From Okamejei kenojei (taxonomy: Eukaryota): 64,000 nucleotides of DNA. Within the stretch, counting starts at the first letter, position 1. Every line of letters begins with the position of its first letter. A model generated the notes under the pieces. It searched no databases. It was not told where the DNA came from and saw nothing but the letters and a program-made list of their open reading frames with translations. The DNA is taken from positions 43,276,001-43,340,000 of the forward strand of contig CM069142.1 of NCBI GenBank assembly GCA_035221665.1. The letters run 5' to 3'. The translations under genes were made by a program, and so were the position numbers. This document shows, piece after piece, positions 4,259 through 55,670 of the stretch.

Positions 4259-7060
4259 CTAGTCCCATCTACCTGCACTCAGACCATACCCCTCCATTCC
4301 CTTCACGTCCATATACCTATCCACTTTACTCTTAAATGTTAAAATCGATCCTGCCTCCACCACTTCTGCTGGAAGCTCATTCCACACAGCCACCACCCTC
4401 TGAGTAAAGAAGTTCCCCCTCACGTTACCCCGAAACTTCTGTCCCTTAATTCTCATGTCATGCCCTCTTGTTTGAATCTTCCCTACCCTCAATGGGAAAA
4501 AACGTATCCACGTTAACTCTGTCTATCCCTTTCATCATTTTAAAGACCTCAATCAAGTCCCCCCTTAACCTTCTGCGCTCCAAAGAATAAAGACCTAACT
4601 TGTTCAACCTTTCTCTGTAACATAGTTGCTGGAACCCTGGCAACATTCTAGTAAATCTCCTCTGTACTCTCTCTATTTTGTTGACATCCTTCCTATAACT
4701 AGGCGACCAAAATTGTACACCATACTCCAGAATTAGTCTTACCAATGCCTTGTACAATTTTAACGTTACTTCCCTACTCCTATATTCAATGCTCTGATTT
4801 ATAAAGGCCAGCACACCAAAGGCTTTCTTTACCACCCTATCTACATGTGATTCCACCTTCAGGGAACTATGCACAGTTATTCCTAGATCCCTCTGTTCCA
4901 CAGCATTCCTCAATTCCCTACCATTTACCATGTACGTCCTATTTTGATTTGTCCTGCCAAGATGGAGCACTTCACACTTAACAGCATTAAACTCCATCTG
5001 CCATCTTTCAACCCACTTTTCCAAATGGCCCAATATCTCTGTAGACTTTGAAAATCTACTTCATTATCCACAACACCACCTATCTTAGTATCATCTGCAT
5101 ACTTACTTATCCAATTTTCCACCCCATCATCCAGATCATTGATGTACATGACAAACAACAGTGGACCCAACACAGATCCCTGAGGCACCCCACTGGTCAC
5201 CGGCTTCCAACCTGACAAACAGCCATCCACCATTACTCTCCCTTTCAGCCACTGTTGAATCCATCTTCCTACTCCGCCATTAACACCCAAAGATTGAACC
5301 TTCTTAACCAACCTTCCATGGGGAACCTTGTCAAAGGCCTTACTGAAATCCATATAGACAACATCCACTGCTTTACCCTCATCAATTTCCCTAGTTACCG
5401 CTTCAAAAAATTCAAGAAGGTTTGTCAAACATGACCTTCCAGGCACAAATCCATGTTGACTGTTCCTGATCAGACCCTGTTTATCCAGATGCTTGTATAT
5501 ATTATCTCTAAGTATCCTTTCCATTAATTTGCCCACCACTGACGTCAAACTAATAGGTCTATAATTGCTAGGTTTATTCTTTGAACCCTTTTTAAACAAT
5601 GGAACAACATGCGCAGTACGCCAATCCTCCGGCACTATTCCCGTTTCTAATGACATTTGAAATATTTCTGTCATAGCTCCTGCTATTTCTACACTAACTT
5701 CCCTCAATGTCCTAGGGAATATCCTGTCAGGACCTGGAGACTTATCCACTTTTATATTTTTCAAAAGTGTCAGTACTTCCTCCTCTTTGAATCTCATAGT
5801 TTCCATAGCTACTCTACTTTTTCCCCTTAACTCACAGAGTTCATTATCCTTCTCCTTGGTGAATACCGAAGAAAAGAAATTGTTCAATATCTCCCCCATC
5901 TCTTTTGGCTCTGCAGATAGCTGTCCATTCTGGTTCTCTAATGGTCCGATTTTATCCCTCGTTATCCTTTTGCTATTAATATAGCTGTAGAAACCCTTTG
6001 GGTTTACTTTCACCTTTCTTGCCAAAGCAACCTCATATCTTCTTTTAGCCTTCCTAATTTATTTCTTAAGATTCTTTTTACATTCTTTATACTCCTCTAG
6101 CACCTCATTTACTCCATGCCTCCTGTAATTATTGTAGATATCTTTCTTTTTTCGAAACAAGTGTCCAATTTCCCTTGAAAACCATGGCTCTTTCCAATTT
6201 TTACTATTTCCTTTCAACCTAACAGGGACATAAAGATTCTGTACTCTTACAATTTCCCCTTTAAATGTCCTCCATTTCTCTTCTACATCCTTCCCATGAA
6301 ACAAAGTGTCCTAATTCACTCCTTTAAAATCCTTACGCATTCCCTCAAAGTTAGCCTTTCTCCAATCAAAAATCTCCACCCTAGGTCCAGTTCTGACTCT
6401 CTCCATAATTATATTGAAACTAATGGTATTGTGATCACTGGTCCCGAAGTGCTCACCAAAGCATACCTCCGTCACCTGACCTGCCTCATTTCCTAACAGG
6501 AGGTCCAGCACTGCCCCTTCTCTGGTCGATACCTCTATGTACTGCTGCAAAAAACTATCCTGCACACATTTTACAAACTCCAAACCATCCAGCCCATTTA
6601 CAGAATGTCTTTCCCAGTCTATTTTTGGAAAATTGAAATCTCCCACAATCACTACCTTGTGCTTACTACTAATATCTGCTATCTCCTTACATATTTGCTC
6701 TTCCAATTCTCGCTCTCCATTTGGCGGTCTATAATACACCCCTAAAAGTGTTGCTACACCGTTCCCACTTCTCAGTTCCACCCAAATAGCCTCCCTAGAC
6801 GAGCCCTCTAATCTATCCTGCCAAAGCACTGCTGTAATATCTTCTCTGACAAGCAATGCAACACCTCCCCCTCTGGTCCCTCCAATTCTATCACACCTGA
6901 AGCAACGAAATCCTGGAATATTTAGTTTCCAATCACAGCCCTCCTGCAACCATGTTTCACTGATTGCCACAACATCATATTTCCAGGTGTCAATCCAGGC
7001 TCTAAGTTCATCCACCTTACTTACAATGCTCCTAGCATTAAAATATACACATTTTAGAAA
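4259..7060 (-). pseudogene. CR1 ORF2 (AP endonuclease + reverse transcriptase), disrupted
   Basis: APE motifs ISETW, YRPP, GDFN, LDL, SDH (6311-7015). RT motifs PGPD, YRPISLTS, QHGF, DFSKAFD, GVPQGSVLGP, YADD (4925-6025), and CR1 C-terminus LERRRLRGDLIE/FFTQRVV. In-frame stops at 6311-6313 and 6059-6061; frameshifts near 5035 and 4495. Confidence 0.95.
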
Positions 7061-7212
7061 CCCACCATCCCTTATTCTCTGTCTATTATCTTTTTCATCT
7101 TTCTCGCCTACATTTTGGATCCGAGTGCTTCCCTTCTCTGCCTCTTACCCCACACCCTGACCCCTAGCCCCCTCTACCCGAGTCCCTCCCCCCAGCCTTT
7201 CTAGTTTAAAGT

Positions 7213-8133
7213 CTACCCAGTAGCCTTTGCAAATCTCCCTGCCAGGATATCGGTCCCCCTCGGGTTCAAGTGCAACCCGTCCTTTGTGTACAGATCATGC
7301 CTTCCCCAAAAGAGGTCCCAGTGATCAAGGAACTTGAATCCCTGCCCACTGCACCAGTCCCTCAGCCACGCATTTATCCTCCACCTCATTTCATTCCTAC
7401 TCTCACTGTCTCGTGGCACAGGCAGTAATCCTGAAATCGTTACCCTTTTGGTCCTTCTCCTTAACTTTCCCCCCAACTCCCTAAATTCTCCCTTCAGGAC
7501 CTCGTCACTTTTTCTGCCTATGTCATTGGTACCTATGTGTACCACAACATCAGGCTCCTCTCCCTCCCTTATCAGAATCTTTTGTACACGTTCTGACACA
7601 TGCGAGACCCTGGCACCAGGGAGGCAAACTACCATCCGGGTCCCCCGACTGCGTCCACAGAATCGCCTATCCAACCCCCTAACTATAAAGTCCCCTATTA
7701 CAATTGCCCTCCTCTTTTTGCTACCCTTCTGAGCATCAGGGCCGGTCTCTGTGCCGGAAGTCCGGCCGCTGTTGCTGCCCCCAGCTAGGCTGTCCCCTCC
7801 AATCGTACTCAAACCCGAGTACCCATTTTCCAGGTGCACGGTCACAGGGGTACTCTCTAGCCCCTGCCTCTGCCCCTTGCCCTTCCTAACCGTGACCCAC
7901 TTGTCTGCCTCCTGTGGTCTGGGAGTTACTACCTCCCTGTAGCTCCTCTCTATTACCTCCTCACTCTCCCTGACCAGACGGAGGTCATCGAGCTGCTGCT
8001 CTAGGTTCCTAACGCAGTCCTTTAGGAGCCCCATCTCGACACACCTGGCGCAGATGTGGATGTCTGGAGGGCTATCAGATTCCCTGACCTCCCACATCTG
8101 ACAATCAAAACAGTACACTGCTCTTGCCTTCAT
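7213..8133 (-). CDS. CR1 ORF1p (CxxC...CxxC zinc finger, coiled coil, SGNH/GDSL esterase-like domain)
   Basis: Open 306-aa ORF with CFDC..CARC, LEQQLDDLRL, IVIGDFIVR (GDS block with S>F), HIGTND, DGLHLN. Confidence 0.9.
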   Translation of the reverse strand: MKARAVYCFDCQMWEVRESDSPPDIHICARCVEMGLLKDCVRNLEQQLDDLRLVRESEEVIERSYREVVTPRPQEADKWVTVRKGKGQRQGLESTPVTVHLENGYSGLSTIGGDSLAGGSNSGRTSGTETGPDAQKGSKKRRAIVIGDFIVRGLDRRFCGRSRGTRMVVCLPGARVSHVSERVQKILIREGEEPDVVVHIGTNDIGRKSDEVLKGEFRELGGKLRRRTKRVTISGLLPVPRDSESRNEMRWRINAWLRDWCSGQGFKFLDHWDLFWGRHDLYTKDGLHLNPRGTDILAGRFAKATG

Positions 8134-8295
8134 ACTGCCCCCTTACACAGGATACAATATCAACACAATACAAAGTACACAACAAACTGCTGGGATCTGA
8201 CTGCCAATCAGCTGCTTTCCCTAGTCCACTTCCCACCAATCAGCGGCTTCCTCAAAAAAACCCACTTCTCCAAATGGAATGTTATGGATTTCGGT

Positions 8296-26035: not shown

Positions 26036-29000
26036 AGTAAATTGCTCGTTTCTAAGCTTTTTACAGTTACAGTTCAATTACAGTTACAGTTCAATTACAG
26101 TTACAGTTCAATTACAGTTCAACTACTGAACCTATCCCACCGCGGGTTCGATCCTCATATCTGCCTGATCAAGCGCTCTAGGCCTCGCTCAAACAGACAC
26201 TCCAGAAAGTCACGCACTCCTAAGCACTCTCCCAGAAGATCGACGCTGGACCTCATGGCAGTGGACTTTTATATATCCCAGGACCTTGAGGGGCCGAACC
26301 ACATGGGGGTGGTCTCTTAATAATCCAATTACAGATATCGATTAATCCAATACATAACAGACATTTCCCCAACCCAATAATATAGCAGCACAATACTTGT
26401 ATTCAACCCGGACTTCTCAAGGAAGCCAACTTAGAAACATTTAGCCTGATCTACAAGAATCCCAGACAAGGCTCTCAATACCCCCATCCAATCAACACTC
26501 GGCAAAGCCGAACTCTGCAACATTATTTTCAATGATTTACAAGGTGTATGTCTGGTTTGCAGCCAAACAATCCACTCTATGCATTTTGCACCTAATTGAG
26601 AAGGTCTGCAGATGTTCTTATTCTTTTCTTACAAATTGTATCTAGGCTCAGACACACTGGCACTACTCCGCAGTTTGTCCCAGCCCTGCAGAGAGCAATT
26701 CCAAATTGACCAAATCTCCCAGTAGCCCTGAAGCTTTTACCCCATTTTGAAGTCCTAGCCTCTCCAATTTAGCCAGGATTAACATTCCTTCCTTTTTATA
26801 ATATATGATAACCCATCATTTATGATAACTAAGTAGTTCAGCTAACCAGATATACATAAGTGTGTCCTTTACATTTTCAATCAAGATGATGATGTTTCTT
26901 CCCAGAATCTTGTCAAGCATCCCGAGTTTTCATGGGCATAACTGCACAAGTTCCATCAGATGAGTCTTCACTTCCCGAGTTTTCGTGGGCGTGAATTTCC
27001 TCCATCCATGTTGCTGCCCATTCTTCCATCACCTTCCACAGTCGAACCTAAAACCTAAATTCCTGAAAAACGTGGGACAAAGCAAGTTACCATCATGCAC
27101 TCATGCTTTCCCATACATTTTCTATAGTTCTGCAATACTATCCCTATTCAAACCTATTATATTACCCTATTACTAGATCCCTATTCCTATTCTGTTCCCT
27201 AATTTACTCTTTATTATTCTAGGATCAACACTAATTAGCCTTCTTCATATTCACACGATGTTATAATATGTATATCTGATGACAGATAATCATATAATTT
27301 TCAGCTGGGTTCAGTCCAGATTTCCCTACACTGACTCCTCCCGTGTGCCCTGCTAGCAAGCTGCGCATGGTTTCTCCGATTTGGGGACATGAGAGTTCTG
27401 TGAGGAATACTGTGGCTCTAGCACCATTCCGAAGAATTCTGCACACCCGGACATATGATAAATATCTCTCCCTTCAAGATATGCAGGCACTGTTTCACTC
27501 TTACCGAATTTAACAGATTTAGGTTTCGTCGGCACCTCCCCTTTAAGAGCCGTCTCAGTAGTCTCCCTTTCAAAACATGATACTCTCTCCTGCTCCTGCT
27601 CCTGCTGTTGGCTTACTAGTTCTCCCTGTCCCTGCTCTGGAATGTTCCGAGAAGGATCAGTTCTATTGTGTTCTCCTATTCCCAATTTACAAGCCACCAT
27701 ACTTAGGGTGGACAGCAAAACAATTTATTTATTTATTTTCCTTATAGTGAAGAACATTCTCCACATCCCAATTAACTAATTTCCTTCTTCACCATTCCCA
27801 TATTTTTTAACAATCATTTCTATATTGTTTATTCCTATTACAGCTTTTAGTCCACCCAACAGCCAAAGTTCATCTTACTAAATTGCATTTAATTCCCCAG
27901 ATAATCCTCTTAGTCTATCCACTTCATGCAGAAGCTCCTCGCAAATTATCCCTATTGTGCTTTCTAATCTGTTTAATCGGTCCTTCTCAGAGACATTCCC
28001 CATTCTCAGAACAATGGTCACAACACAAATTGCAAAATAATGGTTCCAGACACTAACCTCTTCCATTCACTCCTTCCTACAAGGTCAATGGAATCTCTCC
28101 CACACAATAGTCAACGGTCTTTCCGATTCACACTTACTCTAGCAATCCTTTCAACTGTTTCCCAGTCACTCCTATTCAATCACTCCTATTCAATTACTCA
28201 AACCACTCGCTCCTATTCAGTCTCTCTCCCAACTCACATCAGTTAAATCACAATCACTGCATTCAATTCCAAACTTTCAAACAAAGGATCGCAATCCAAG
28301 TCTAACTCTCAATCGCAGTCTCTCACGCAGGAATCTCTCTCTCACTCAATTCACTTTAAGTTGCACAGACAAATCCGAACCAAGCTAACAAAACTATAAT
28401 TAAGAACGAAAATATTCCGCCGATTATCAATAACCCAAGACACACCCCAATATAAACTATAAGCCTCCAGTAAACCCCACTCTAATTAATCTTCCTCATG
28501 GCGCAATCAATCAGCAGGATGACTCCTCCCCCAACACAGTGATCGAAGGAGTACATGCCCTGATCGAACCACCCCGATTCAGATTCTTACAACACCACGC
28601 TCTAAAATAATTACAAATATTTAAAGCAAACACACTCTTACTTCAAGTTTCTAAATCCGTAAACACTCGCAAACACTCGCAGCAACACAAATGACGGTCC
28701 GCGGATTTAACACGATCTAAATCTTAACCTTTAATTCTTAATATAGGTTATTTACATACATAGAATATTTACAAAATCCGGATCCTATGACAATACGAAA
28801 AGCTAGATTTTTACAATTTACAAAATGATTTAAAGCACTAGCGCACAGTTCACAACCAATGTTTTGGGCCTCTAACCCAGGAAAGCGCCTCTAACCCATC
28901 CTGGTTTTATGGGCCTTTAACCGAAAGGCGTGCTAGCCATTCCCCATGCTTGCTAGACTCTGTTCTAATGATCTTGATTAGACCCTTTCCCAAGCCCGTG

Positions 29001-29903
29001 AATGATCGATCCGCTCCGACTAATGAAGTGCCGAAAATCAATGCAAAAACTACACCGTGAGCCCGATTTCTGCACGCGATTGAAACAGCTCAACACCCTT
29101 GATCGCAGACTTGTGTTTGGGGGTCTTTTGAGATCCCGGATGAGCCCCCAATGTAAATTGCTCGTTTCTAAGCTTCACCCCTGTCTAGTTTCAGTAAAAA
29201 CACTGAATCAAGCACTTGAAACAACAAATTTTAATTTTAATAAAAGCGCAATTACAGTTCAACTACTGTACCTATCCCACCGTGGGTTCGATCCTCGTAT
29301 CTGCCTGATCAAGCCCTCTAGGCCTCACTCAAACAGAGACACTCCAGAAAGTTCCAAGCGCTCTCCCAGAAGATCGGCGCTGGACCTCGTGGCTGTGGAC
29401 TTTTATATGTCCCGGGACATTGAGGGGCCGAATCACATTGGGGTGGTCTCTTAACAATCCGATTACAGATATTGATTAACCCCATACATAACAGACATTT
29501 TCCTAATCCAATAATACAGCAGCTTAATACATTGTATTCAACCCGGACTTCTCAAGGAAGCCAACTTAGAAACATTTACCCTGATCTACAAAAAACCCAG
29601 AAAAGACTCAAAACCCCATCCAATCAACACTCGGCAAAGCCGAACTCTGCAACATTATTTACAAGGTATGTCTGGTTTGCAGCCATCCAATCCATTCTAT
29701 GCATTTTGCACCTAATTGACAGGGTCTGAAGATGTTCTTATACTTTACTTGCAAATTGTATCTAGGCTCTAGATACACTGGCACCACTCCATAGCTCTGC
29801 ATCTCTGCAGAGAGCAATTCTCAATTGACCAAATCGCCCAGCAGCCCTGAAGCTTTTACCCCATTTTGAAGTCCTAGCCCCTCCAATTTAGCCAGGATTA
29901 ACA
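26036..29903 (-). mobile_element. Non-autonomous endogenous retrovirus (class I, gamma/epsilon-like), 2 LTRs
   Basis: LTRs 29152-29903 (5', TG...CA on minus) and 26036-26784 (3'). PBS TGGGGGCTCATCCGGGAT (29133-29150, tRNA-Pro type), PPT AAAAAAGGAAGGAA (26785-26798), 4-bp TSD AATG (26032-26035 and 29904-29907), TATAAAA at 29401-29407 on minus. Confidence 0.9.
27353..28003 (-). pseudogene. Degenerate gag-like (matrix-like N-terminus) region of the ERV
   Basis: Starts MGNVSEKD (myristoylation-type MG) about 1.1 kb after the PBS and continues past two stops into DELWLLGG (WPxxG-like). No pol or env motifs seen. Confidence 0.45.
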
Positions 29904-30478: not shown

Positions 30479-33400
30479 CTACAATCTTTGAGCACATTTT
30501 TATTTGTTGGAGCAGTTTTGATTTAGAAGTAGCAGACAGACTCTTGTACCAAGTAGTGTTACAATACCGCAAAATACTCATTATCTCGGCAGTAAAAAAT
30601 AATAAAAGGATTTGTTTACTTGCTCGGAATGATCTTAGTCGGCAGAGAAACCAGATTCTTTGTTTTGTCATATTGCAAATCTTATCAATGTGGTTATTCC
30701 ATGATAATTGATAGTCTATAGTTACCCCCCAAGTATTTAAATGAAGACACCTGCTTGATTTTTTTCGTTATTGGTAACAAGTGAAACTTTATGAGAGTCA
30801 GATGGTGAACCAAATACAATCTCTTCTGTTTTCTTTATGTCAATCTTAAGGGCATTATTTTCAGTCCACTCGACCAATTTGTTCACACCGAGTTGGTGCA
30901 GCCCGGGGTTGTCTGAGTTACTTAAAAGAGATAATAAAACTGTATCATCTGAGTACTTTAGAATATATTGATTTGGTGTATCTGTACGACAATCATCCGT
31001 ATACAAGGTAAACAGCATAGCTGAACTCACACAACCCTGGGGTGCCCCGACATCGGTTGTGATGGCAGATGAAAGGGTTTTATTCACCTTTACTATCTGT
31101 ACTCTGTTAGTGAGAATGGAAGCATGCCAGTGAATCAGATAGGGATTTAATTCCTGCTGGACCATTTTTGACACAAAAATGTCTGATTGAATCGTGTTGA
31201 AAGCTGATGAAAAATCTAGAAAGAGGGCTCTTGCATTAGTGTTGGGTTTGTCTAAGTGTTTGGAGATGATATGAACTAGGGAGGCAACCGCATCTTCCGT
31301 GCCACAGCCCTGCTGATAGGCAAATTGATAAGGGTCGAGTTTATTTTTTGTGGTACTGATGAAATGTCAGAGCAAAATTATTTCGAGAGATTTCATAATC
31401 ACCGATGTAAGGGCTATGGGTCTGAAATCCTTATATTCTTTGGGATATGTATTCTTGGGCCAAGGTTTTATATGCAAAGTTTTCCATAACAGAGGGACAG
31501 TGTGTGTGTCTACAGAGGCCTGAAAGATTTGTTGCCACACTGGAGCCAGCTGTGTTGCAAAGTTCCTCAAGAGGAAAGCGCTGCATCCATCCGGCCCAGC
31601 AGCTATCCTTGTATTTGTACGCTGAAATGTTTTCCTGACATCTTCAACGGTGATGACAATTCTGTCGGAGGCAGCAGGTATAATAGATTTAAGGATGTCG
31701 GTGCACTTGGTAGAATTATCTAGGGATTCAAATCTGGCCAAAAAAGTGCTGAGTTCTTTGGAGAGAAATGGCTCGTTATCTGTCACAATAGATTTAGATG
31801 GGGTTGACATTCCTGTCATAGATTTCATTGTATCCCACACCTTTTTGGAATTATTGGCTCTGAAAGCATCTTCCAGATGCGGTCTGTGTGCCAATTTTAC
31901 TTCCCTCAATCTTATTTTCAGTTCTTTTTCTGTCTGTTTAAGTGCTCCAGAATCTTTGTTTTTGAAAGCCACTTTCCTCGTATTTATTACTTTTTTTACG
32001 TTCTTAGTTACAAATGATTTGTTGTTGGGATAGATTTTAATCTCCTTAATGGGTACAACCAACTGTACACAAAAATCAATATAATCGTTTGTAACTATGG
32101 TTATTTCATCTAGTGAACCTTCCTGAAAGGTTTCCCGCTCCATCAATTCAAAACAGGCTTTCAGTTGTTCCCTACATTCATTTGTCGAAGTCCTTGGCAC
32201 TTTTTTTTCTGGCTTACTTCTCTTAAAGTTGGTCTTATCCACGGGAACTATGTGCACAACATTATGATCAGAATTCAATATGTGTGGCTTACACTTGGAT
32301 GCATAAGCCCCTTTAACATTTACAAAATATTTGTCCAAGATATTATCGTTTCTGGTTTTATCTCTGATGTACTGTTCGAATCCAGGTAACACAGTCTCCA
32401 AACGACACTGAATCAGATCCCCGAGCACTATTGCTGGTGCATCGGGGTAGTTGAGTTGTAGTTCATGAACGCAGTCCGTTATTGTCCCGGCCGCCAATGA
32501 CGCTTTGCCGCTGGGAGGCACGTATACAACAAACAGCAAAATACACCCATATTCTCGAGGCAAATAGAAAGGTCTTAACAACATGCCGAGGATTTCTACA
32601 TTGGGGTCGCAGATCTTATATTTTTACTGAGCACGCACGGCACCAAAGATCGTTAATGTATACACAAATGCCGCCTGCCTTAGTTTTTCCAAGACAGCTG
32701 CGTCCCTGTCAGCGCGCGCTAAGGTGAATCCGGGTACTTCAAAGAGGGAATCTGGCATTGTCGATTGCAACCAGCTTTCCGTGAAGCACAATAAAGATGC
32801 TTATGGAATTCATTACAGTACCTTGTGTATGTCCGTATCGCGTCCACTTTGTTGTTTGAAGTGTGCAGGTTTGTAAGGATGATGGATGGAAGGGGCGGCC
32901 GATTGAATCTCCGTCGTAGGTGGTTCCGAATACCCCCTCTTCTTCCTCATTTCCTTTTCCTTTTCCTTTTAATTTAAATCAGTTCCTGAGGGATGTTATC
33001 CAACATCGAACGGTAGAAGTGGCTTGATGTCCCCTGAGTCTGCTTGTGTTGTAGCTCCAGCAAAGCCTCTTGGTTGTACAAACGTACTGGCCGTGGCTCC
33101 ACGCGACACCTGTCTGTGATGCCACTCAGGTGTGTATTAGTTTGCACCGACAAAGGCCAATAATCCACGGAATCATCCACAGAAACAAAAGCCTAGGTTT
33201 CAGGGCACACATATCATACTATGTACATAGGCAGACTCCATCCTGTATGCCAACAATTAGTCGGCATACAGGATGGAGGTGGAGCTGCTTACAGAGTGGT
33301 ACAGATCTCACAATCTCACCCTCAACGTGGAAAAGACAAAGGAGATAGTAATCGATTTCAGGAGGGCTGGAAAACATCATCATAAAACCACTGCACATTG

Positions 33401-37904: not shown

Positions 37905-38646
37905 CCACCAGGGGAGCCGGGGCGATTGCTGCCCTGCCGGCAGTCTGTTCCTTTTTTCATTCTTTTTGTTATTTTTTAGTGTGTTAAAAGTTTGTTTTAA
38001 TGCTCTTCGGTTTGTATGTGGGGAGAGGGGGGAGAGGATCGGGGAAAACATTTTTTCAAGTTCTTATCTCGCCAGAGATGTGATTCATTTTCGGATCACA
38101 TTCTCCGGGCGCTCTGCAGCTTTCCATCGATGGAGCTGGAAGCCTCCTCGGACTGACTTTGAGCCCTATCGCTGGGTGCGGATTTAACATCGGAGCTGAT
38201 CCCTTGCCTGGGATTGCTCCCACCGCGGACTTTACCATCAAGCTCGGAATCGGGAGAGGCTAGTCGGGAAGCTCCAACGTCGCGGAAGGTTCGACTAGCC
38301 CTGACGCAAGGTTCGATCGCCCGGCGTGGGAGAGCTGACATCCCCCCCGATGCGGGAGCTGATTGCCTCGATGCAGAGGGCACAAATGCCGCCTGCTACG
38401 GGAGTCAAGATTGTCCCATCAATGGGGGCTTGAGGCCCACGACCAAGGAAGAACTAAGGGAAGGACTTGAACTTTATTTCTCCTTCCATCACAGTGAGGA
38501 ATGTGTAGGAGTCGCTGTGGTGGATGTTCATGTTAAAACGTGTTTTTGAGTGATCTGTTGCTTTTAATTGTATGACTGACCTGGCCAATTAAATTCCTCG
38601 TATGTTGCAAAACATACTTGGCGAATAAAGTGTGATTCTGCTTCTG
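37905..38646 (+). mobile_element. Non-coding Rex/L2-type non-autonomous retroelement, copy A
   Basis: 5' ccaccagggga..gctgccctgcc..T-rich block, GC-rich degenerate repeats, 3' aaattcctcgtatgttgcaaaacatacttggcgaataaa(gattct). Homologous to 38920-39285 and 48154-49003. Confidence 0.7.
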
Positions 38647-38919: not shown

Positions 38920-39285
38920 CTAGACTGTGAGCTCCTTGATGTTAAAGTCCACAGGCCGCAGTTGGAGCGTCGATCCCAGGCAAGGGATCAGCTCTGATGG
39001 TAAGTCCACGTCCCCGCGGTGGGGCTCAAAGTCAGTCCCGAGGAAGGCCCCCAGCTCCACGATGTTAGGCTGCAGAGCGACCCGAGATACAATCCGGAAA
39101 ACAATCGCATCTCCGGCAAGGTAAGAGATTTTTTTTAAGTTTCCTCCGACCCCCTCCCCCACACCCCACATAAAACAAACCAGAGAACATTAACACAAAC
39201 TTTTAAAACACAATAAAAATTAAAAAAAGACAAAAAGACAGACAGACTGTAGGCGAGGCTGCCATCGAAGCGCCACCCGGTGGTT
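38920..39285 (-). mobile_element. Same family, copy B (5' part)
   Basis: Minus strand CCACCGGGTGGCGCTTCGATGGCAGCCTCGCC... aligns with copies A and C. Confidence 0.7.
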
Positions 39286-41631
39286 TTCTCTTCAAAATTA
39301 TTCTCTTTCTTCCCTCCTCCCCCCCAATCACATGTTAATATTCTTCAATATGTATTCTCATTACCGCCTTCAGAATCAGTTTATCCTTGTATGATCTATT
39401 GGAACCTTAATGTTGCTCAGAGCTATGAGAGGATTTTGTGTATTTAGAGTGGGTGCAGAATATTGCCTTATAATGACTCATCGCAAGGATTGGCCTTGAC
39501 CGTGGAAGATTAGTGGGTGATCTAATTGTGGTGCTTAAGATGAGTAAAAGGGTAGGTAGTGTAAAACCACAGAAAGCTGTCAACAAGACGATATGATCTT
39601 CAAATTAGAACCGGGCTGTACAGAGGTGATGGTGATGGTAGGAAGCTTATCTTCACACAGAGTGTTGGGGAAACATGTTTATCTCCTGCCTCCAATGTAC
39701 TATTGAGACTGAGGAGCTGCTGAAAAATGTAGAACTAAAAATCTGTTACATTTTCATTGTAAAGGATGCAAAGGGAAACAGAATGTAGGAGATTAGATGG
39801 GATTGCAATGCGGTTCAACCATTGTGTAATCAAGTGAAAGAATAGGATTGGGCTCCTAAATTTTAATTCAAATACTGGATTAACTTTTACAGGAACACAG
39901 TATGATTGACACTATTGATATTTAAGTTTGGGAAAGGATTGTGGATCTTGGCAAGGTTGTTATGTAATTGTTTTCTGAAGACATTATAATGTGAATTGCA
40001 TTGACTTGGATTTTACTGTGTTTAGGTGCTTGCATTTAAACATGTAAATGTTAGCAAGTTCAGAACAGTAGTGTATGTGCATCAGAAAGAGTCCTAGTTT
40101 TGGTGATAATTTCCCACTGGTGAATCATGCACTCAGCTACATCGCATGATTCAAATTTCCTGAACTTCCCAGCAGTTGAACTTAGGATTCTACTTGCGGA
40201 TTTCACAACAGGTCAGACTGGCACAAGTCCGGACGAATTCACAAATGTAAGGAAGATCTGGTGCAGTAGGATGTGACTTTAGTAATTATATATTTGCTGC
40301 AATGTTTCCATTCCAGTACTGTGGCACTATAGCAAAGATTATTTTGGAATTCCGAAAGCACACTATTCACTGTTCCTTTACTTTGGAAAATCTCAGGACA
40401 GATTTTTGAATACAGTGGGTGGGTCATGGTCTACACAATGCATTACGTGTGACCACTCATCACCACTCATGGCCAAAGTCATCCACTTGACCAACTGGTG
40501 CCATTGCAACTCCACAAAGTGGGAACTTAATTTATAAAAATATCCATTCAATAAAAAAAATTGCTTACTTTCACTTAACTTTCTCACTTAGATGGTGGGT
40601 CCATTCACATGAATGGAGTCACATACCTGGCATAAAGCGAAAGCACCAATTATAACATTCAGTCTCTCTGCTCGATACTGAGTTGGAAAAACTGAGTCCA
40701 GTGGTGAAGTGGTAAGTCGGCTATTCACTACCACTGGTGTCTGACCTCCACTCGCATGCCATATATAAATCCCAGGTACTCACATGCAATTCTTATCAGA
40801 ACCAGAGACTGAGGAGTAGAACAATCTGAGCCAGTTTCCCCTCCTCTGCCCAAACCACCTCGCCTATTGCCATGATCTATGTAATCAGTCCTATCATTTA
40901 CCTTGATAATGACAGGCTTAGCAACCTGTCATATTCTGATCCTTCTCTATTGCCTTTCCTGAATAGTTACACTTGCTTATCTGCTGATCACCGTGCCCAT
41001 TCTGAAATCCAGTGAATGCTGGAAGATCAGAATCAATGAGCTCCCTTTCATGCAGGGTGCCAGGGGTTTAGGACGATGATGTCAGCCATCAGGTCGAGGG
41101 AAGTTCTCAGCTCTTAGTCCAGTTAATGACTGCAGTTCCATTTCTTTACCAACACTAATTCCTTTATGTCCTTTTTCCTCACAAGACCCTAGGATCCCTC
41201 TTATTCACGGAACCGTGAAATCAGGTACAAAGAATTCATTTGATGGTTTTGCCATTATCTTAATCCCATTATAATTTCTCCTTTTTCTGCCTGCATGTTT
41301 ACATTTGCTAATCCTTCATACGTACATCCCAAAGGGGCTTTTGCATTCTGTTTGAATGCCCTGCCCTAGTTAATGGCAGGGATTTGTACTTCTCGAGAAG
41401 CAATGTCGGTGCATGCATAGGCCTTGATGTTTCCACAGCCGGTCCACTCGAGGGGAAGGGCTGGAATAAGTTTGTGAATTGAGTTTCATGAAATTCTGCT
41501 CCACCAAAACTTGTCTATAATTTCCAGTCAGATTGCAGAAGGGCCCTTTTGAGATCAACTGAAGGTTTAAGCTTTATTAGGGAAGCATAATCAATTCCCG
41601 GGGGTTTCAAGGCATCCTGGGCTTGGAATGG

Positions 41632-43861
41632 TGTAGATGATATGCGTATACACCTTTAATTGATAGTGACGATGTCCATGCTAACCACCCCCCCACCAGT
41701 TAGTATAATTGTAACCCACACGCCCCTAGCTCTCTCTCTGGTGATCGTGACAGACCACGTACAGCTAGGGCTATATGATGTATGATTAATAAAGTAGTGA
41801 AGACCTTAAGGTGTCTGTGTACCTTCTCTACATGGTGTCAGAAGTGGGATAGGCGGCAACGATCCAACAATCCTTTAGCACTGCCCACTGCGCGCTCGGC
41901 CAATCCGTTGCTCTGTGGGTATTCCGGGCTGCTGGTGTAATGACGAAAGTTCCATCGTTCGGCAAAAGCGCGGAACTCGGCACTGGTGAACTGGCTTCAG
42001 GATGCCCGTGGCCACCATCTCGCGAAGAGCAGACTCGACCTTGCCCCTCATGGCGAAGGACACACGGTGTGGGGGACGGATGACCGGCCTGATGTCGGGA
42101 TTGAGGGCAATCTTGTAGCTGCAGGGCAACTTCCCCAGCTTCAAGTCAAACCGGTCTGGGAATTCGGCCAGCGGATTCAGGGGTGCCTCTACCAGGTGGA
42201 CATCGCTGTGGAAGCTCACCAATCCGAGGTCCTGGCAGGCCTCCACGCCGAGCAGGGGGTCACATTTACCGTCTAGCAGGAAGAAAGAGAGGGGCCAAGA
42301 GGTCTTCAGCACCTTGCAGTGGAGAGTGGCCCTCCCCACAGGAACAAGTACGCCACCCCCATAGGCACGCAAAACAGCAATGTCTGTGGAAACGAGCTCA
42401 TTATTTCTTATCTTCCTGAACAGGCTTGTTGACATAACATTAGCAGCAGCCCCCGTATCCACCTTAGCAGAGAAGGCCATGCCATTCACCGTGACTCGGA
42501 CGGTTGGGTCCGTTATCAGAGCAGCTGCACCTCGCAAGAAAAACACACTCAGATCGCTCTGAGAAGAGTCAGAGTCAGACGGGGGGAGTTCATCATGCTG
42601 GAGATGGGAACCAGACCCTGTATCATCATGTGTCAGGTAGCGAGACGGTTTCTGCTGTGGCTATGCAGGGTTCCCACGGGAACGGCATGCTGCCAAGAAG
42701 TGGTTGGGCTTGTTGCAGAAATTACAGGTTTTCCCCAACGCCGGGCACACATTAGAATGGTGTGAAACAAAGTTATAATTTGGACATCGTTGAGGCGGTC
42801 TGAAGCCCTGCAGTGGGCTTGCCCTCTGTCGCCAGGGAGCCTTGTACTGGTGACCAGCGAGACTGGCTGAGTGGACCACAGGGTCAGGTACAGCGGAGGA
42901 GAAAGCCTCAGCTAAACGAGAGGCATGCAACGCCTCATTGAATGTCAGATCAGGCTTACGCAGCAGCTCAGAGCGCAGCTTATCATCCCGTAGACCAAAG
43001 ACCAAGATGTCAAGGGTCAAAGTATCAGGGGTCAGGACATGCAGGTCACATCGGCGAGCCAGTTGGCGCAGCGTGGCCACGAAATTGTGAATAGATTCCC
43101 CAGGGTTTTGGCGTCGGGAGAACAGTTTGAAACACTCTAAGATGTGGTTAGTGAAGGTCACTACATCACCGTAAATTTAGCAAGCAGACATACCGGGTCC
43201 TGGATACTCTCACCCTGTCCATAGATGAATGACTCCGATCACTCAAGCGCTTCGGGACCAGCGTGATTAAGCAGCAGGGAAGCCTTGACAGCGGGGGCCA
43301 CAGCAGGGTGAGCGATTGTAACATAATGCTCAAAGTCACATCGGAACACACTCCAGCGATGTGTGATGTCTGCATCAAAGACTAGGATGTCAAGTTTACG
43401 ACAGGTAGAAGCAATCACGGCACAGGGAGGGGGTACTGGGACTAAGAAAATAAAACGCGATTGACTGGAGATGCAGGAAGAAGAACTTCTGATGCCATGT
43501 AGAGAAAGGATGTAGATGATATGTGTATACACCTTTAATTGATAGTGACGATGTCCATGCTAACCACCCCCACACCCCCTTGCCCTTCTCTTCGCCGTCC
43601 CCCCCGATGCCTTCGTCGCCCAGAGGTTCTCCTGTCCGCAGCCCCCACCATGCCCCGGCGACGTCCCCGCTTGTTCCCGTCGGGGAAGGAGGTGATGGCG
43701 AGGTGCGGACCCGGTCTGGTCGCCTGGTCAGGCCGCCGGTCCGTTACGGCGATTACGTGTCTCTCTCTGGTGATCGTGACAGACCACGTGCAGCTAGGGC
43801 TATATGATGTATGATTAATAAAGTAGTGAAGACCTTAAGGTGTCTGTGCACCTTCTCTACA
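41632..43861 (+). mobile_element. Gypsy LTR retrotransposon (rearranged, non-autonomous)
   Basis: LTRs 41632-41832 and 43511-43861 (TGTAG...CTACA, AATAAA near the 3' end), PBS TGGTGTCAGAAGTGGGAT (41833-41850, tRNA-Leu type), purine tract AGAGAAAGGA before the right LTR, 5-bp TSD AATGG/GATGG. Confidence 0.9.
41851..43420 (-). pseudogene. Gypsy gag - protease - RT N-terminus / integrase core, deleted and frameshifted
   Basis: Gag RRQNPGESIHNFVATLRQLARRC and CPALGKTCNFCNKPNHFLAAC; protease VDTGAAANV; RT start RPPHRVSFA; then [32 protein letters not shown] (integrase). Confidence 0.9.
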
Positions 43862-44684
43862 GATGGGGTAATGGAATCTCCATCCTGTGGTTAAATATTT
43901 GTCTGGGATATCATGGGGGCTTAGGACAATGAAACCTGTGGTCAATTGAACCAAGATTATGGATTGAGGTAACGCAACTATTTTGATGTAACCAGGGGAT
44001 ATATGCATTTAGCTATCATAGCAGAGTGGGTTATATAAAAATAATAGTCCAGTAAAAAACAGGTCAATGTTCATCCAGTATTCAGCTGGTGGCCCCACAC
44101 TTGGGGCTATAAAATTATTCACACAACTATCTCTTCTTAGTGATAGAGAGATGTAGCAAGGAAACAGGCCCTTCGGCCCATCGAGTCAAGTGTATAATTG
44201 TCATATGCGTTAGGACAGGAATGATGAAATTCCTGCATGCTACAGCTTCACAGGTATTTTAACACAAACAAACAACAAGTGAATGTGCAATAGACAATAA
44301 GACAGTATTAATAGTTATATGGTAACAAGGCCACTATACTACAAGCCGAAGTATGTCATGCTACTTTATGCAAAGTACATAGCAGTTGTTTGCTGAGGTA
44401 GGTTGTGATTATAGTAGTGCAGGGTGATTCAAATGCCTGATAGTTGATGGGAAGATTCAGTTCCTGAACCTAGAGGAAACATTCTCAGGATGGTAGGAGC
44501 AAGATGAGAGCGTAAACATGTGGTGTGATTATTTCATGATATTAGCTGCTTTCCTGAGGCAGGAAGGCAGGTTCTTCTGACCTGAACATCTCTTCGAAGG
44601 TGGGAAGGTTGTGACAGATCATGCAATGACCCCCCAGTTTATGCAACTTTATTCTCGGGCGTTTGAGTTACCGAATCACACTGA

Positions 44685-53806: not shown

Positions 53807-54664
53807 TTAAAATCTGCAAATTAACAGATCAATACAATCATATAAAGGATGTTGATCCCCAGTGACTGGATTTACCAGTAGAATTTTATTCTTGGGCATA
53901 AGCATGTAAGGCTCCCTAGCCATTTGTAATACAACGGGAAACCATGCTTGTGTAGGCCAATCTGGCACTACCAATACCCCTGAAGCGGAGTCCTCCTTGA
54001 TCTTTTGCAAACATCTGCTGATGAGACAGAATGGAGGAAATACATACACAAACATCCCTCCCCAATGCAGCGAAAACGCATCCACTGCTACTGCCCCAGC
54101 ATCTGGTTCCCATGAAACATATCTAGGTAACTGATGATTTAATCGAGATGCAAACAAGTCAATATCTGGCAATCCATACTGAACAATCATTTGGTTAAAT
54201 ACATCCTGATTTAACATCCATTCAATGTTGTCATTAAACTGACGTGACCTAGTGTCAGCTACCGTGTTGAACCTTCCTGGCAAATAAAGTGCTGAAAGCC
54301 AGATATTTTGGTCAATACACCAGCTCCAAATCTGGTTAGCCAGTCTATCACAAGACTGTGACTTAACTCCACCCATGTGGTTTACATATGCCACTGCTGT
54401 GGTGTTGTCAATCTGAACCTGCACATGCAGATCCCTCCTTGTAGAACAATAAGCTTTGAGCCCATACCAGGTGCACAACAACTCTAAATAATTAATCCCT
54501 CTTAATTGAAGTAGCGATGTCTCATCCACATTCCATCTGCCTCCACAATTAGAAAACATATCTGTTGCACCCCAACCCAGTGCACTTACATCAGTCTGTA
54601 ATATCAGTGATGGTGGTTCCACCAAAGCCTTCCTAAACTTTTTGAAACATGTACTATTCACCAT
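53807..54664 (-). CDS. DIRS RNase H + DNA N6-adenine methyltransferase-like domain
   Basis: QTDVSALGWG, INYLEL, DNTTAVAYVNHMGG, N.VAD.RSR; DIDLFASRLN, VDAF..W, YVFPPF, PDWPTQAWF. Frameshifted from the RT ORF. Confidence 0.85.
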   Translation of the reverse strand: MVNSTCFKKFRKALVEPPSLILQTDVSALGWGATDMFSNCGGRWNVDETSLLQLRGINYLELLCTWYGLKAYCSTRRDLHVQVQIDNTTAVAYVNHMGGVKSQSCDRLANQIWSWCIDQNIWLSALYLPGRFNTVADTRSRQFNDNIEWMLNQDVFNQMIVQYGLPDIDLFASRLNHQLPRYVSWEPDAGAVAVDAFSLHWGGMFVYVFPPFCLISRCLQKIKEDSASGVLVVPDWPTQAWFPVVLQMAREPYMLMPKNKILLVNPVTGDQHPLYDCIDLLICRF

Positions 54665-55596
54665 TGTATGTCAGCAATCGCCCCAGCTGACAACTGCATA
54701 GGCCTATCAAAATGGCCCCTTTGTATTCTCAGTGCCTGTTCCTTTGATTGTTGTAATTGTTGATAATGCAGAGGACCATACTGCACAGCTGGAAATGCTG
54801 CAACAAACTTCCCAATTAAACTGGCTACTTGTCTAATCGAAGGCCGTTGTTCTCCAATGAGATTAACACAGTCCTCAATTAACTGATTCAATTTATCCCT
54901 GGGCAAAGTTACCAACATGTTATTGGAATTAATGGTAAATCCCAGATAATCAATAATTTGGACTGGTGATAATTTAGATTTATCTGGGTGAATAACAAAT
55001 CCCATTTGTTCAAAAGTGATTTTAACAACTGAAACTGATGATTGAGTTTCAGCATGAGTCTTTCCAACAATCAGAATATCATCTAAATAGGCCACTACCA
55101 CATGCCCCTGAGCTCTAAGTAATGATAACACAGGTTTTACCAATTTAGTAAATAATCTAGGAGCTGAAGTTAATCCATTCGGCAATGCCCTGAATTGCCA
55201 CAGCTCAGTCATCCAAATAAATTTCAAATATCTTCTATCATCACCATGAATAGACACTGAGTAATACGCATTCTTTAAATCAATGGTTGCCATATAATAC
55301 CCTTTGGACACTAGATGTTTGCCCGTGGTAAAGGTCTCCATTTTGAAATGCCTATAACAAACACATTTGTTCAAACTCGATAAATCCAGAATAATTCTAC
55401 ATCCCCCAGTCTTTTTAGATCTGGGAAATATACTTGACAGAAATTGTTGACTTTGATAGACAGAAGGCTCAATTACCCCCTTTCTTATGTAACGACTGAA
55501 TCTCTGCTTGAATAAGCACATTTTCCTCATCTGAAAAAATAAGTTTACGACTAGGAAAATGTTGATTAGGTAGACTGTCCTTAGAGTAAAATTCAA
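54658..55596 (-). CDS. DIRS reverse transcriptase
   Basis: CRIILDLSSLN, HFKME, IDLKNAYY, LPNGLTSAPRLFTK, AYLDDIL, YLGFTI. Confidence 0.9.
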   Translation of the reverse strand: MNFTLRTVYLINIFLVVNLFFQMRKMCLFKQRFSRYIRKGVIEPSVYQSQQFLSSIFPRSKKTGGCRIILDLSSLNKCVCYRHFKMETFTTGKHLVSKGYYMATIDLKNAYYSVSIHGDDRRYLKFIWMTELWQFRALPNGLTSAPRLFTKLVKPVLSLLRAQGHVVVAYLDDILIVGKTHAETQSSVSVVKITFEQMGFVIHPDKSKLSPVQIIDYLGFTINSNNMLVTLPRDKLNQLIEDCVNLIGEQRPSIRQVASLIGKFVAAFPAVQYGPLHYQQLQQSKEQALRIQRGHFDRPMQLSAGAIADIQW

Positions 55597-55670
55597 TTTT
55601 TCACCCCTTCAATACTACTAAGTATGAACAAATCTGATGTCAACTGCTGCCATTGTTTGAGAAACAATTT

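What the first reader, a model, noticed from the sequence alone, without database searches (positions are those of the whole stretch)
41632..43861. Gypsy element with its coding region inverted between co-oriented LTRs, and two opposing PBSs
Seen: both LTRs are + oriented (AATAAA and PBS after the left LTR), yet gag-PR-RT-IN reads on the minus strand. The inverted segment has its own LTR-end stub and PBS (minus strand TTCTCTACA-TGGCATCAGAAGT at about 43485-43506). The antisense of that stub supplies the purine tract AGAGAAAGGA in front of the right LTR. The left PBS is exactly 18 nt and joins directly to antisense integrase sequence. A 5-bp TSD (AATGG/GATGG) suggests the rearranged molecule integrated as one unit. 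Established: plus-strand strong-stop DNA copies 18 nt of the primer tRNA. Inference: a fossil of aberrant strand transfer or autointegration that still has LTR-PBS-PPT-LTR cis signals. It could be a mobilisable derivative that transcribes antisense gag-pol RNA (a potential piRNA/siRNA source).
Basis: partly seen in the sequence, partly recalled or inferred. Interest (0 to 1): 0.7.

Follow-up and report, generated by a model that had tools for sequence, protein, structure and literature searches.

The report
Scrambled retrotransposon from mis-jumped reverse transcription
A dead copy of a common jumping gene carries its middle back to front between correctly oriented end repeats, most likely because the copying enzyme jumped to the wrong template several times before the copy was inserted normally; it is a clear fossil of a known kind of accident rather than a new mobile element.

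Summary
The structure is real, and more scrambled than reported. A 2,230-bp Ty3/Gypsy copy has both LTRs in family sense and a 5-bp target duplication; two runs of a related species show the empty site. Five junctions differ from the family. The 18-nt tRNA-Leu(CAA) primer site joins an antisense integrase piece. That piece joins antisense gag-protease and a reverse-transcriptase stub, with about 600 codons missing. An inverted U5+PBS copy joins the polypurine tract. A sense piece of the pol end replaces the middle of the right LTR (two junctions). Family copies have only a 14-nt PBS. The PBS's last five bases match both the tRNA and the integrase, so a tRNA-copied plus-strand strong-stop end probably jumped by microhomology onto a sense template. 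Best reading (0.7): one aberrant reverse-transcription product, integrated as a unit. Autointegration does not fit. Mobilisation is unlikely, since the transcript would bury its PBS in a 22-bp stem; antisense RNA is untested. Three other contigs show long primer sites joined to abnormal places, a hint that the error recurs. The internal junctions were not seen in independent reads.

The parts
41627..41631 (+). Left copy of the 5-bp target-site duplication (4/5 identical to the right copy)
   Evidence: chance of >=4/5 is 1.7%; empty site in X6 and X7 joins 41626 to 43862
41632..41832 (+). Left LTR, 201 bp, family-normal length, TG...CA; TATA-like boxes at 41704 and 41772, AATAAA at 41788
   Evidence: X1 joint 43568/41689 and high family depth over its middle
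41833..41850 (+). 18-nt PBS, perfect complement of the tRNA-Leu(CAA) 3' end; family copies carry only the first 14 nt
   Evidence: loose end at 41846 in 7 contigs of X1
41846..41850 (.). Junction 1: 5-nt overlap shared by tRNA nt 14-18 and antisense integrase
   Evidence: Family integrase contigs align from 41846 (5 contigs, X1) and to 41847 (X7 record 26); random-join chance of >=5 nt is 0.5-0.7%
41851..41993 (-). Integrase core piece, 47 residues, inverted
   Evidence: 87% to P0003, 79% to P0004; weak rve hit, E 0.013
41990..41996 (-). Junction 2: RT stub fused out of frame to integrase; about 600 codons absent; overlap 4-7 nt
   Evidence: Family RT continues past 41990 (9 contigs X1, 8 contigs X2); residues 505-1104 of P0014 unrepresented
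41990..43421 (-). Inverted gag, protease and N-terminal stub of RT; decayed (frameshift near 43164-43152, in-frame stops at 43239-43241 and 42661-42663)
43422..43484 (-). Inverted 5' leader
   Evidence: Matches the family sequence that follows the PBS (loose end at 41846)
43485..43497 (-). Inverted second PBS, 11 of 13 matching the tRNA end
   Evidence: pairing -13.5 against -33.2 kcal/mol for the left PBS
43498..43506 (-). Inverted 9-nt U5 end
43501..43510 (+). 10-nt polypurine tract; junction 3, with a 6-nt overlap (43501-43506) with the U5 stub
   Evidence: X2 contig joins the pol end (43760) to 43501; one contig, depth 66.9, letters between not known
43511..43576 (+). Right LTR, first 61-66 nt; junction 4 lies in a C-run at 43572-43576
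43577..43760 (+). Sense piece of the pol C-terminus, up to its stop codon, placed inside the right LTR
   Evidence: 62% to residues 635-697 of 697 in P0004; family continues otherwise past 43760 (18 contigs X6, 7 contigs X7)
43760..43861 (+). Right LTR from LTR position 100 to the end; junction 5 (1-nt overlap)
   Evidence: 98% to 41731-41832
43862..43866 (+). Right copy of the target-site duplication

Best explanation
A single faulty reverse-transcription product of a tRNA-Leu(CAA)-primed Ty3/Gypsy family, integrated by integrase as one unit, then decayed. Shown: the anatomy, five non-family junctions, the TSD and empty site, the 14-nt family PBS, and the overlaps at junctions 1-3. Inferred sequence of events: plus-strand strong-stop DNA copied 18 nt of the primer tRNA, 4 more than the genomic PBS can pair with. 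Its free 3' end paired with five bases of the integrase gene on a sense template (the second RNA copy or plus DNA). Synthesis then ran backwards through integrase, skipped about 1.8 kb at a 4-7-nt overlap, and copied RT start, protease, gag, PBS and 9 nt of U5. The new end, which resembles the PPT, paired with the PPT complement and went on into the LTR, with a detour through the pol end. The mirror-image order (all jumps made by the other strand) gives the same product and cannot be told apart. The copy is most likely a dead end.
For: Empty site and 5-bp TSD; flank-to-LTR single-copy contigs at both ends in X1 and X2. Junction 1 lies where plus-strand strong-stop DNA ends (18 nt into the tRNA; PMC8599865 passage). 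The family PBS ends at the 41846 equivalent, yet the next 4 letters match the tRNA; those 4 letters occur at 6 of 1,631 positions of the internal DNA. Overlaps of 5, 4-7 and 6 nt at junctions 1-3 have random-join chances of about 0.5%, 1.6-0.04% and 0.13%. The two PBS+U5 copies differ at 3 of 23 places, against 1.8-2.4% between the LTRs (P about 0.017), and all 3 favour the tRNA in the left copy. The pol-end piece in the right LTR comes from a region the copy no longer holds elsewhere. Three of the 15 joints shown leave the PBS at nt 16-19 for abnormal places; one carries 16 further letters that match the tRNA probe.
Against: The five bases at junction 1 are also integrase letters, so their tRNA origin rests on probability, not direct reading. 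None of the 32 pieces listed (48,070 not shown) bridges an internal junction, so the inner structure is seen only in the window. The left LTR is normal and the right one altered, which needs two minus-strand templates or a second-pass detour; five jumps in one cycle is a lot, given that non-homologous switching is at least 1000-fold rarer than homologous (PMC3187697 passage). Junction 5 has only a 1-nt overlap. Microhomology is also the mark of host end joining (PMC13427564 passage). Two of the three PBS differences could be CpG decay. The PPT assignment rests on one contig.
Confidence: 0.7

Rival explanations
1. An intact element integrated first and was later rearranged in the chromosome by host repair (microhomology-mediated break-induced replication or end joining with templated insertions), giving the inversion, the 23-nt inverted duplication, two deletions and the insert in the right LTR.
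For: Microhomologies of 4-10 nt are a known mark of host end joining in defective HTLV-1 proviruses. An inverted duplication at an inversion end fits staggered breaks (recalled). In an intact element the pol end lies close to the 3' LTR and could serve as a local template. Unequal LTRs are easy to explain this way.
Against: An intact family copy has a 14-nt PBS, so the match of the next 4 letters to the tRNA would be a 1-in-270 coincidence. The two PBS copies differ more than expected for a post-insertion duplication. All breakpoints stay inside the element and three fall on reverse-transcription signals (PBS end, PPT, possibly the R start); the flanks are unrearranged.
Confidence: 0.15
2. Pieces of stalled cDNA (a strong-stop piece, an internal piece, a 3' piece) were joined by host end joining before integration; integrase then used the two intact ends.
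For: Keeps the tRNA-copied end and the TSD; explains unequal LTRs and the 1-nt overlap at junction 5. Host end joining makes two-LTR circles from such cDNA (PMC7197481 passage).
Against: Needs several pieces to be joined in one order without untemplated letters; none of the five junctions shows inserted letters.
Confidence: 0.07
3. Assembly artefact: the inner structure was stitched from several family copies.
For: The family is highly repeated, and no independent contig that bridges an internal junction was shown.
Against: Both outer junctions stand in two runs from two studies, and the empty site in two more. Assemblers do not join at 1-7-nt overlaps (general knowledge), and the tRNA-matching overlap at junction 1 would be a coincidence.
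Confidence: 0.04
4. The copy belongs to, or founded, a mobilised non-autonomous subfamily with an inverted interior.
For: It keeps LTR-PBS-PPT-LTR. The family does amplify deleted forms: joint 42033/42932 at depth 415-444 in X1 and X2, against 21-36 for single-copy contigs.
Against: The transcript's PBS is paired in a 22-bp stem (-34.8 kcal/mol against -33.2 for an 18-nt tRNA end; also in the whole-transcript fold). The LTRs are unequal, which a further round of copying would have made equal. An 18-nt PBS joint and a unique empty site fit a first-generation product.
Confidence: 0.03
5. Autointegration: an inversion circle made by integrase, later integrated.
For: Inversion circles with an inverted portion between the LTRs are described (PMC7197481 passages).
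Against: Autointegration joins LTR terminal CA ends to inner sites and uses them up (general knowledge). Here both terminal CA ends join host DNA with a TSD, the inner joints lie at the PBS end and within U5, and PBS+U5 is present twice.
Confidence: 0.01

Closest known systems
Ty3/Gypsy (Metaviridae) retrotransposons of cartilaginous and bony fishes, annotated 'K02A2.6-like'
   Same: Gag with zinc knuckle, protease, RT, integrase order in relatives; TG...CA LTRs; tRNA PBS next to the LTR; 5-bp TSD. Nearest named proteins are from Leucoraja erinacea (61% and 56%; 77% for the integrase piece).
   Different: Interior inverted, RT catalytic domain and RNase H absent, second inverted PBS+U5, pol end inside the right LTR.
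Defective retroviral proviruses with deletions, insertions and inversions from template switching
   Same: Short-overlap junctions, intact ends. 1.9% of HTLV-1c proviruses sequenced had an inversion and 58 of 185 deletion joints had 4-10-nt microhomology (PMC13427564 passages). Deletions with insertions by RT switching (PMC3187697 passages). Deletions next to the PBS from strand-transfer errors (Pulsinelli and Temin: recalled, not seen).
   Different: Here the copy is in the germ line, shared by several haplotypes, has the whole interior inverted, five junctions, and a family PBS shorter than the tRNA copy.
Over-extended or unpaired plus-strand strong-stop DNA
   Same: Copying stops 18 nt into the tRNA; tRNA letters that the genome cannot pair block normal transfer (PMC8599865 passages). 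One X1 contig shows such read-through between an LTR end and an LTR start.
   Different: In HIV-1 such products are said not to integrate; here the end found another template and the product was integrated with a TSD.
Autointegration inversion circles (Ty1, Arabidopsis SISYPHUS)
   Same: An inverted portion between two LTRs.
   Different: Those are circles joined at LTR ends; this copy's joints are at the PBS end, in U5/PPT and inside genes.
Non-autonomous LTR derivatives (TRIM, LARD; features recalled)
   Same: Keeps LTR, PBS and PPT without coding capacity.
   Different: No sign of several copies; unequal LTRs; PBS predicted to be occluded.

Membership tests
Ty3/Gypsy LTR retrotransposon (origin) | Direct LTRs with TG...CA ends | tested here: met
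Ty3/Gypsy LTR retrotransposon (origin) | tRNA-complementary PBS after the 5' LTR and PPT before the 3' LTR | tested here: met
   PBS. PPT: 10 purines, family origin from one contig
Ty3/Gypsy LTR retrotransposon (origin) | Domain order protease-RT-RNase H-integrase | tested here: met
   In relatives P0014 and P0002; in the window the remaining pieces keep the order gag-PR-RT stub-integrase on the minus strand
Ty3/Gypsy LTR retrotransposon (origin) | Integrase-type insertion with 4-6-bp TSD | tested here: met
   Empty site in X6 and X7
Autonomous Gypsy element | Intact sense gag-pol with RT, RNase H and integrase | tested here: not met
   582 of 1,351 residues of P0014 represented, mostly antisense, with stops and a frameshift
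Aberrant reverse-transcription product (strong-stop mis-transfer) | Junction at the 18th tRNA-copied base, beyond the genomic PBS | tested here: met
   Family PBS ends at nt 14; nt 14-18 overlap integrase; origin of the shared letters inferred
Aberrant reverse-transcription product (strong-stop mis-transfer) | Rearrangement present from the moment of insertion (same in all carriers) | tested here: inconclusive
   Outer junctions seen in X1 and X2; inner junctions not among the rows shown
Autointegration product | Internal junctions at LTR terminal CA ends | tested here: not met
Mobilised non-autonomous derivative (TRIM/LARD-like) | Several copies with the same interior at different sites | tested here: inconclusive
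   No genome held; no listed contig bridges an inner junction, but 48,070 pieces were not shown
Mobilised non-autonomous derivative (TRIM/LARD-like) | Equal LTRs and an accessible PBS | tested here: not met
   201 against 351 bp; PBS paired in predicted fold
Antisense piRNA/siRNA source locus | Strand-biased small RNAs from the junction-specific sequence | not testable with these tools
   No RNA run among the 20 holders of a DNA-kind search

The most novel reading that the evidence does not exclude
In this family the genomic PBS (14 nt) is shorter than the tRNA stretch copied into plus-strand strong-stop DNA (18 nt or more). The unpaired tail recurrently misdirects the second strand transfer onto sense templates, so the family keeps writing integrated copies whose own LTR drives RNA antisense to its gag-pol: a built-in route from reverse-transcription error to silencing loci. 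Recurrence alone has perhaps even odds (three further long-PBS joints, one of them weak); a silencing role is untested.
Probability: 0.12. Interest if true: 0.72.

Novelty: new variant of a known kind. Interest (0 to 1): 0.38.

Why it matters
Reverse-transcription errors are mostly known from cultured retroviruses and yeast. This copy preserves one in a vertebrate germ line with base-level evidence of which end jumped and why: a tRNA-copied tail that the element's own PBS cannot pair. If a genome-wide count shows that long-PBS copies are regularly mis-joined, genome assemblies become a record of where RT stops on the primer tRNA in vivo and of what a short PBS costs an element. If such inverted copies are transcribed, they would be a way for a retrotransposon family to seed its own antisense silencing RNA. 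As one dead copy it is a curiosity.

Tried and rejected
Own-genome search: no genome held, so copies could not be counted. A 15-letter PBS pattern in viral contigs gave 49 loci, 0 of 49 with a tRNA gene; the tRNA was identified from a published probe instead. An LTR pattern in metagenome contigs gave 1 locus, L050, whose only likeness is 26 letters: a chance hit. No second family copy in the window. ARAGORN found 0 tRNA genes in the window. Pfam gave no informative hit for the RT stub, the pol C-terminal piece or the gag N-terminus. The bacterial promoter scan does not apply. Local folds around the two PBSs were unremarkable (z -0.02 and -0.38), so a fold-back at either site is not supported. 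Rejected: 'LTRs are sense to the minus strand'; 'the purine tract is only an accident of the stub' (one contig says family PPT); 'mirror PBS as a family-wide second primer site' (family contigs put the pol end, not an inverted leader, before the PPT). Depth sums were not used as copy numbers. Several table-3 rows show no X1 or X2 contig with the window's letter inside the element; contigs drop rare variants, so this was not counted either way. The idea that junction 5 marks the transcription start (27 nt after the TATA-like box at LTR position 73) is unproven: a second TATA-like box lies at 141. Ten paper searches listed no paper on this architecture, judged from titles and abstract starts; the library lacks most older subscription papers, so this is not evidence of novelty. 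No supplements were read.

Full report
Observation. The element spans 41632-43861 (2,230 bp). The left LTR is 201 bp and the right 351 bp; they share a 61-66-nt 5' block and a 102-nt 3' block with 3 of 163 or 4 of 168 differences. Gag and protease read on the minus strand and match two Leucoraja erinacea proteins at 61% and 56%, which suggests a cartilaginous-fish host (inference). An inverted copy of the last 9 LTR bases and the PBS lies at 43485-43506. The left PBS equals the first 18 letters of a tRNA-Leu(CAA) probe in PMC7997516 (passage).

Independent DNA. No genome is held. A run search listed 21 runs, 20 holding part of the stretch; I laid 4 of them: X1 and X2 (organism A, two studies) and X6 and X7 (organism B, two studies). 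In X6 and X7 one contig joins 41626 directly to 43862, so the site is empty and the insertion is the element plus a 5-bp duplication. In X1 and X2 single-copy contigs run from the left flank into the left LTR and from the right LTR into the right flank. Flanks differ from the window at 14 of 842 places in organism B, 5 of 924 in X1 and 4 of 909 in X2, so the insertion is shared by several haplotypes and roughly as old as the split from B or younger. The tables were cut (17 joints, 744 loose ends and 48,070 pieces not shown), and none of the 32 pieces shown bridges an internal junction. The inner structure is therefore confirmed only in the window itself.

Orientation. Family contigs go from the LTR end through a PBS into the leader that precedes gag (7 contigs at 41846 in X1; an opposite-strand joint 43505/43853 in X2). 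The + strand is thus the family's sense strand and the interior is inverted. Single relatives (P0004, P0005) match an integrase piece on the minus strand and the pol C-terminus on the plus strand of the same element, which shows the inversion independently.

Five junctions. I read the loose-end places as first or last aligned bases, after checking this at 41990 and 43760. J1: the family PBS ends at the 41846 equivalent (14 nt), and family integrase aligns from 41846 onward (5 contigs in X1; X7 record 26 to 41847). Bases 41846-41850 are therefore shared by tRNA nt 14-18 and antisense integrase. J2: family RT goes on past 41990 (9 and 8 contigs), whereas the window switches to 47 residues of integrase core; residues 505-1104 of the full-length relative P0014 are unrepresented and the RT domain proper is absent. 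The overlap is 4-7 nt. J3: one X2 contig joins the pol end to 43501, so the 10-purine tract is probably the family PPT and overlaps the U5 stub by 6 nt. J4 and J5: 184 nt of sense pol C-terminus replace about 33 nt of the right LTR; the family continues otherwise after 43760 (18 and 7 contigs); J5 has a 1-nt overlap at LTR position 100. For a random join, overlaps of at least 4, 5, 6 and 7 nt have chances of 1.6, 0.5, 0.13 and 0.04%.

Mechanism. Plus-strand synthesis stops 18 nt into the primer tRNA, and tRNA letters the genome cannot pair block normal transfer (PMC8599865, passages). With a 14-nt genomic PBS the strong-stop DNA ends in four unpaired bases. J1 falls exactly there, at a site where integrase offers five pairing bases; the four non-family letters occur at only 6 of 1,631 inner positions. 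The simplest account is that this end jumped onto a sense template, copied it backwards with one deletion jump, ran through PBS into U5, and then paired with the PPT complement to finish the LTR, with a detour through the pol end. The mirror order on the other strand is equivalent. Both ends stayed intact and integrase inserted the product. The left PBS+U5 differs from its inverted copy at 3 of 23 places, each favouring the tRNA on the left, as expected if one was copied from tRNA and one from genomic RNA; CpG decay could explain two. All steps of this paragraph after the first sentence are inferred. I put this at 0.7. Rearrangement after insertion (0.15) remains open because microhomology also marks host repair (PMC13427564, passages) and because five jumps in one cycle is demanding (PMC3187697, passages). 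Autointegration circles have inverted parts (PMC7197481, passages) but join at LTR ends, which is not the case here.

Recurrence. Three of the 15 joints shown leave the PBS at nt 16-19 for abnormal places, at depths of 30-47 against 21-36 for single-copy contigs: to sense gag, to antisense gag (weak, 22 letters), and to an LTR start after 20 letters of which the first 16 continue the tRNA probe. This hints that long tRNA copies are mis-joined repeatedly in this family. The reference selects for such joints and the table is cut, so no rate can be given. Earlier unchecked notes of this scan describe similar accidents in other genomes; I did not test them and do not count them as support.

Function. 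A transcript from the left LTR would pair U5+PBS with its inverted copy over 22 bases (-34.8 kcal/mol, against -33.2 for an 18-nt tRNA end), and the whole-transcript fold does so. The leader and gag are antisense, the LTRs are unequal, and one of two TATA-like boxes is missing on the right. Mobilisation is unlikely. About 1.65 kb of RNA antisense to a highly repeated family is possible but no RNA was examined.

Literature. Passages only were read of PMC7997516, PMC8599865, PMC13427564, PMC6894440, PMC7197481, PMC7472051 and PMC3187697; PMC6894440 and PMC7472051 gave background and no matching case. Pathak and Temin 1990, Parthasarathi 1995 and Lauermann and Boeke 1997 were seen as reference titles only; Pulsinelli and Temin is recalled. 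Ten searches listed nothing with this architecture, in a library that lacks most older papers.

Verdict. Observation confirmed with corrections; interpretation partly supported. A new variant of a known kind: a germ-line fossil of strong-stop mis-transfer with unusually readable junctions, probably a dead end. Interest 0.38; 0.72 if the error proves recurrent and yields silencing RNA (probability about 0.12).

Noticed in passing
One search, run X1, joint 41851/43518: One contig (depth 47) reads LTR end, PBS, 20 further letters of which the first 16 match the tRNA-Leu(CAA) probe, then an LTR from its 8th base: tRNA read-through well past nt 18, placed between two LTR parts.
   Followed up: partly
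One search, joints 41848/43316 (X1) and 41850/42855 (X2): Two more long-PBS joints at about single-copy depth: 16-nt PBS to sense gag (shorter side 47 letters), and 18-nt PBS to antisense gag (shorter side only 22, letters between not known; could be another allele of this locus or chance).
   Followed up: partly
joints 42033/42932 and 42515/41993: Family derivatives at depth 415-444 and 214-290 in X1 and X2; the first is shown with depth 0 in X6 and X7. Probably amplified deleted subfamilies.
   Followed up: no
window 41689 and 43568: Both LTRs share a letter that part of the organism-A depth has (38% X1, 10% X2) and none of the organism-B depth: the copy may come from a subfamily younger than the species split (table 3).
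   Followed up: partly
window 44147-44187: Very highly repeated short sequence (summed depth up to about 10^6), also at 487-527; probably part of a SINE.
   Followed up: no
window 4461-8142, 30740-32623, 53810-55608: Long minus-strand frames that look like two LINEs and a DIRS-like RT/RNase H (labels recalled, not searched). No host gene was looked for beyond this list.
   Followed up: no
window 37923-38242 with 38935-39267; 26109-26784 with 29249-29903: An inverted pair (75%) and a direct pair (88%) of older repeats.
   Followed up: no
P0005: A Leucoraja protein in which the gag N-terminus is followed by integrase: an internally deleted relative of the family.
   Followed up: no
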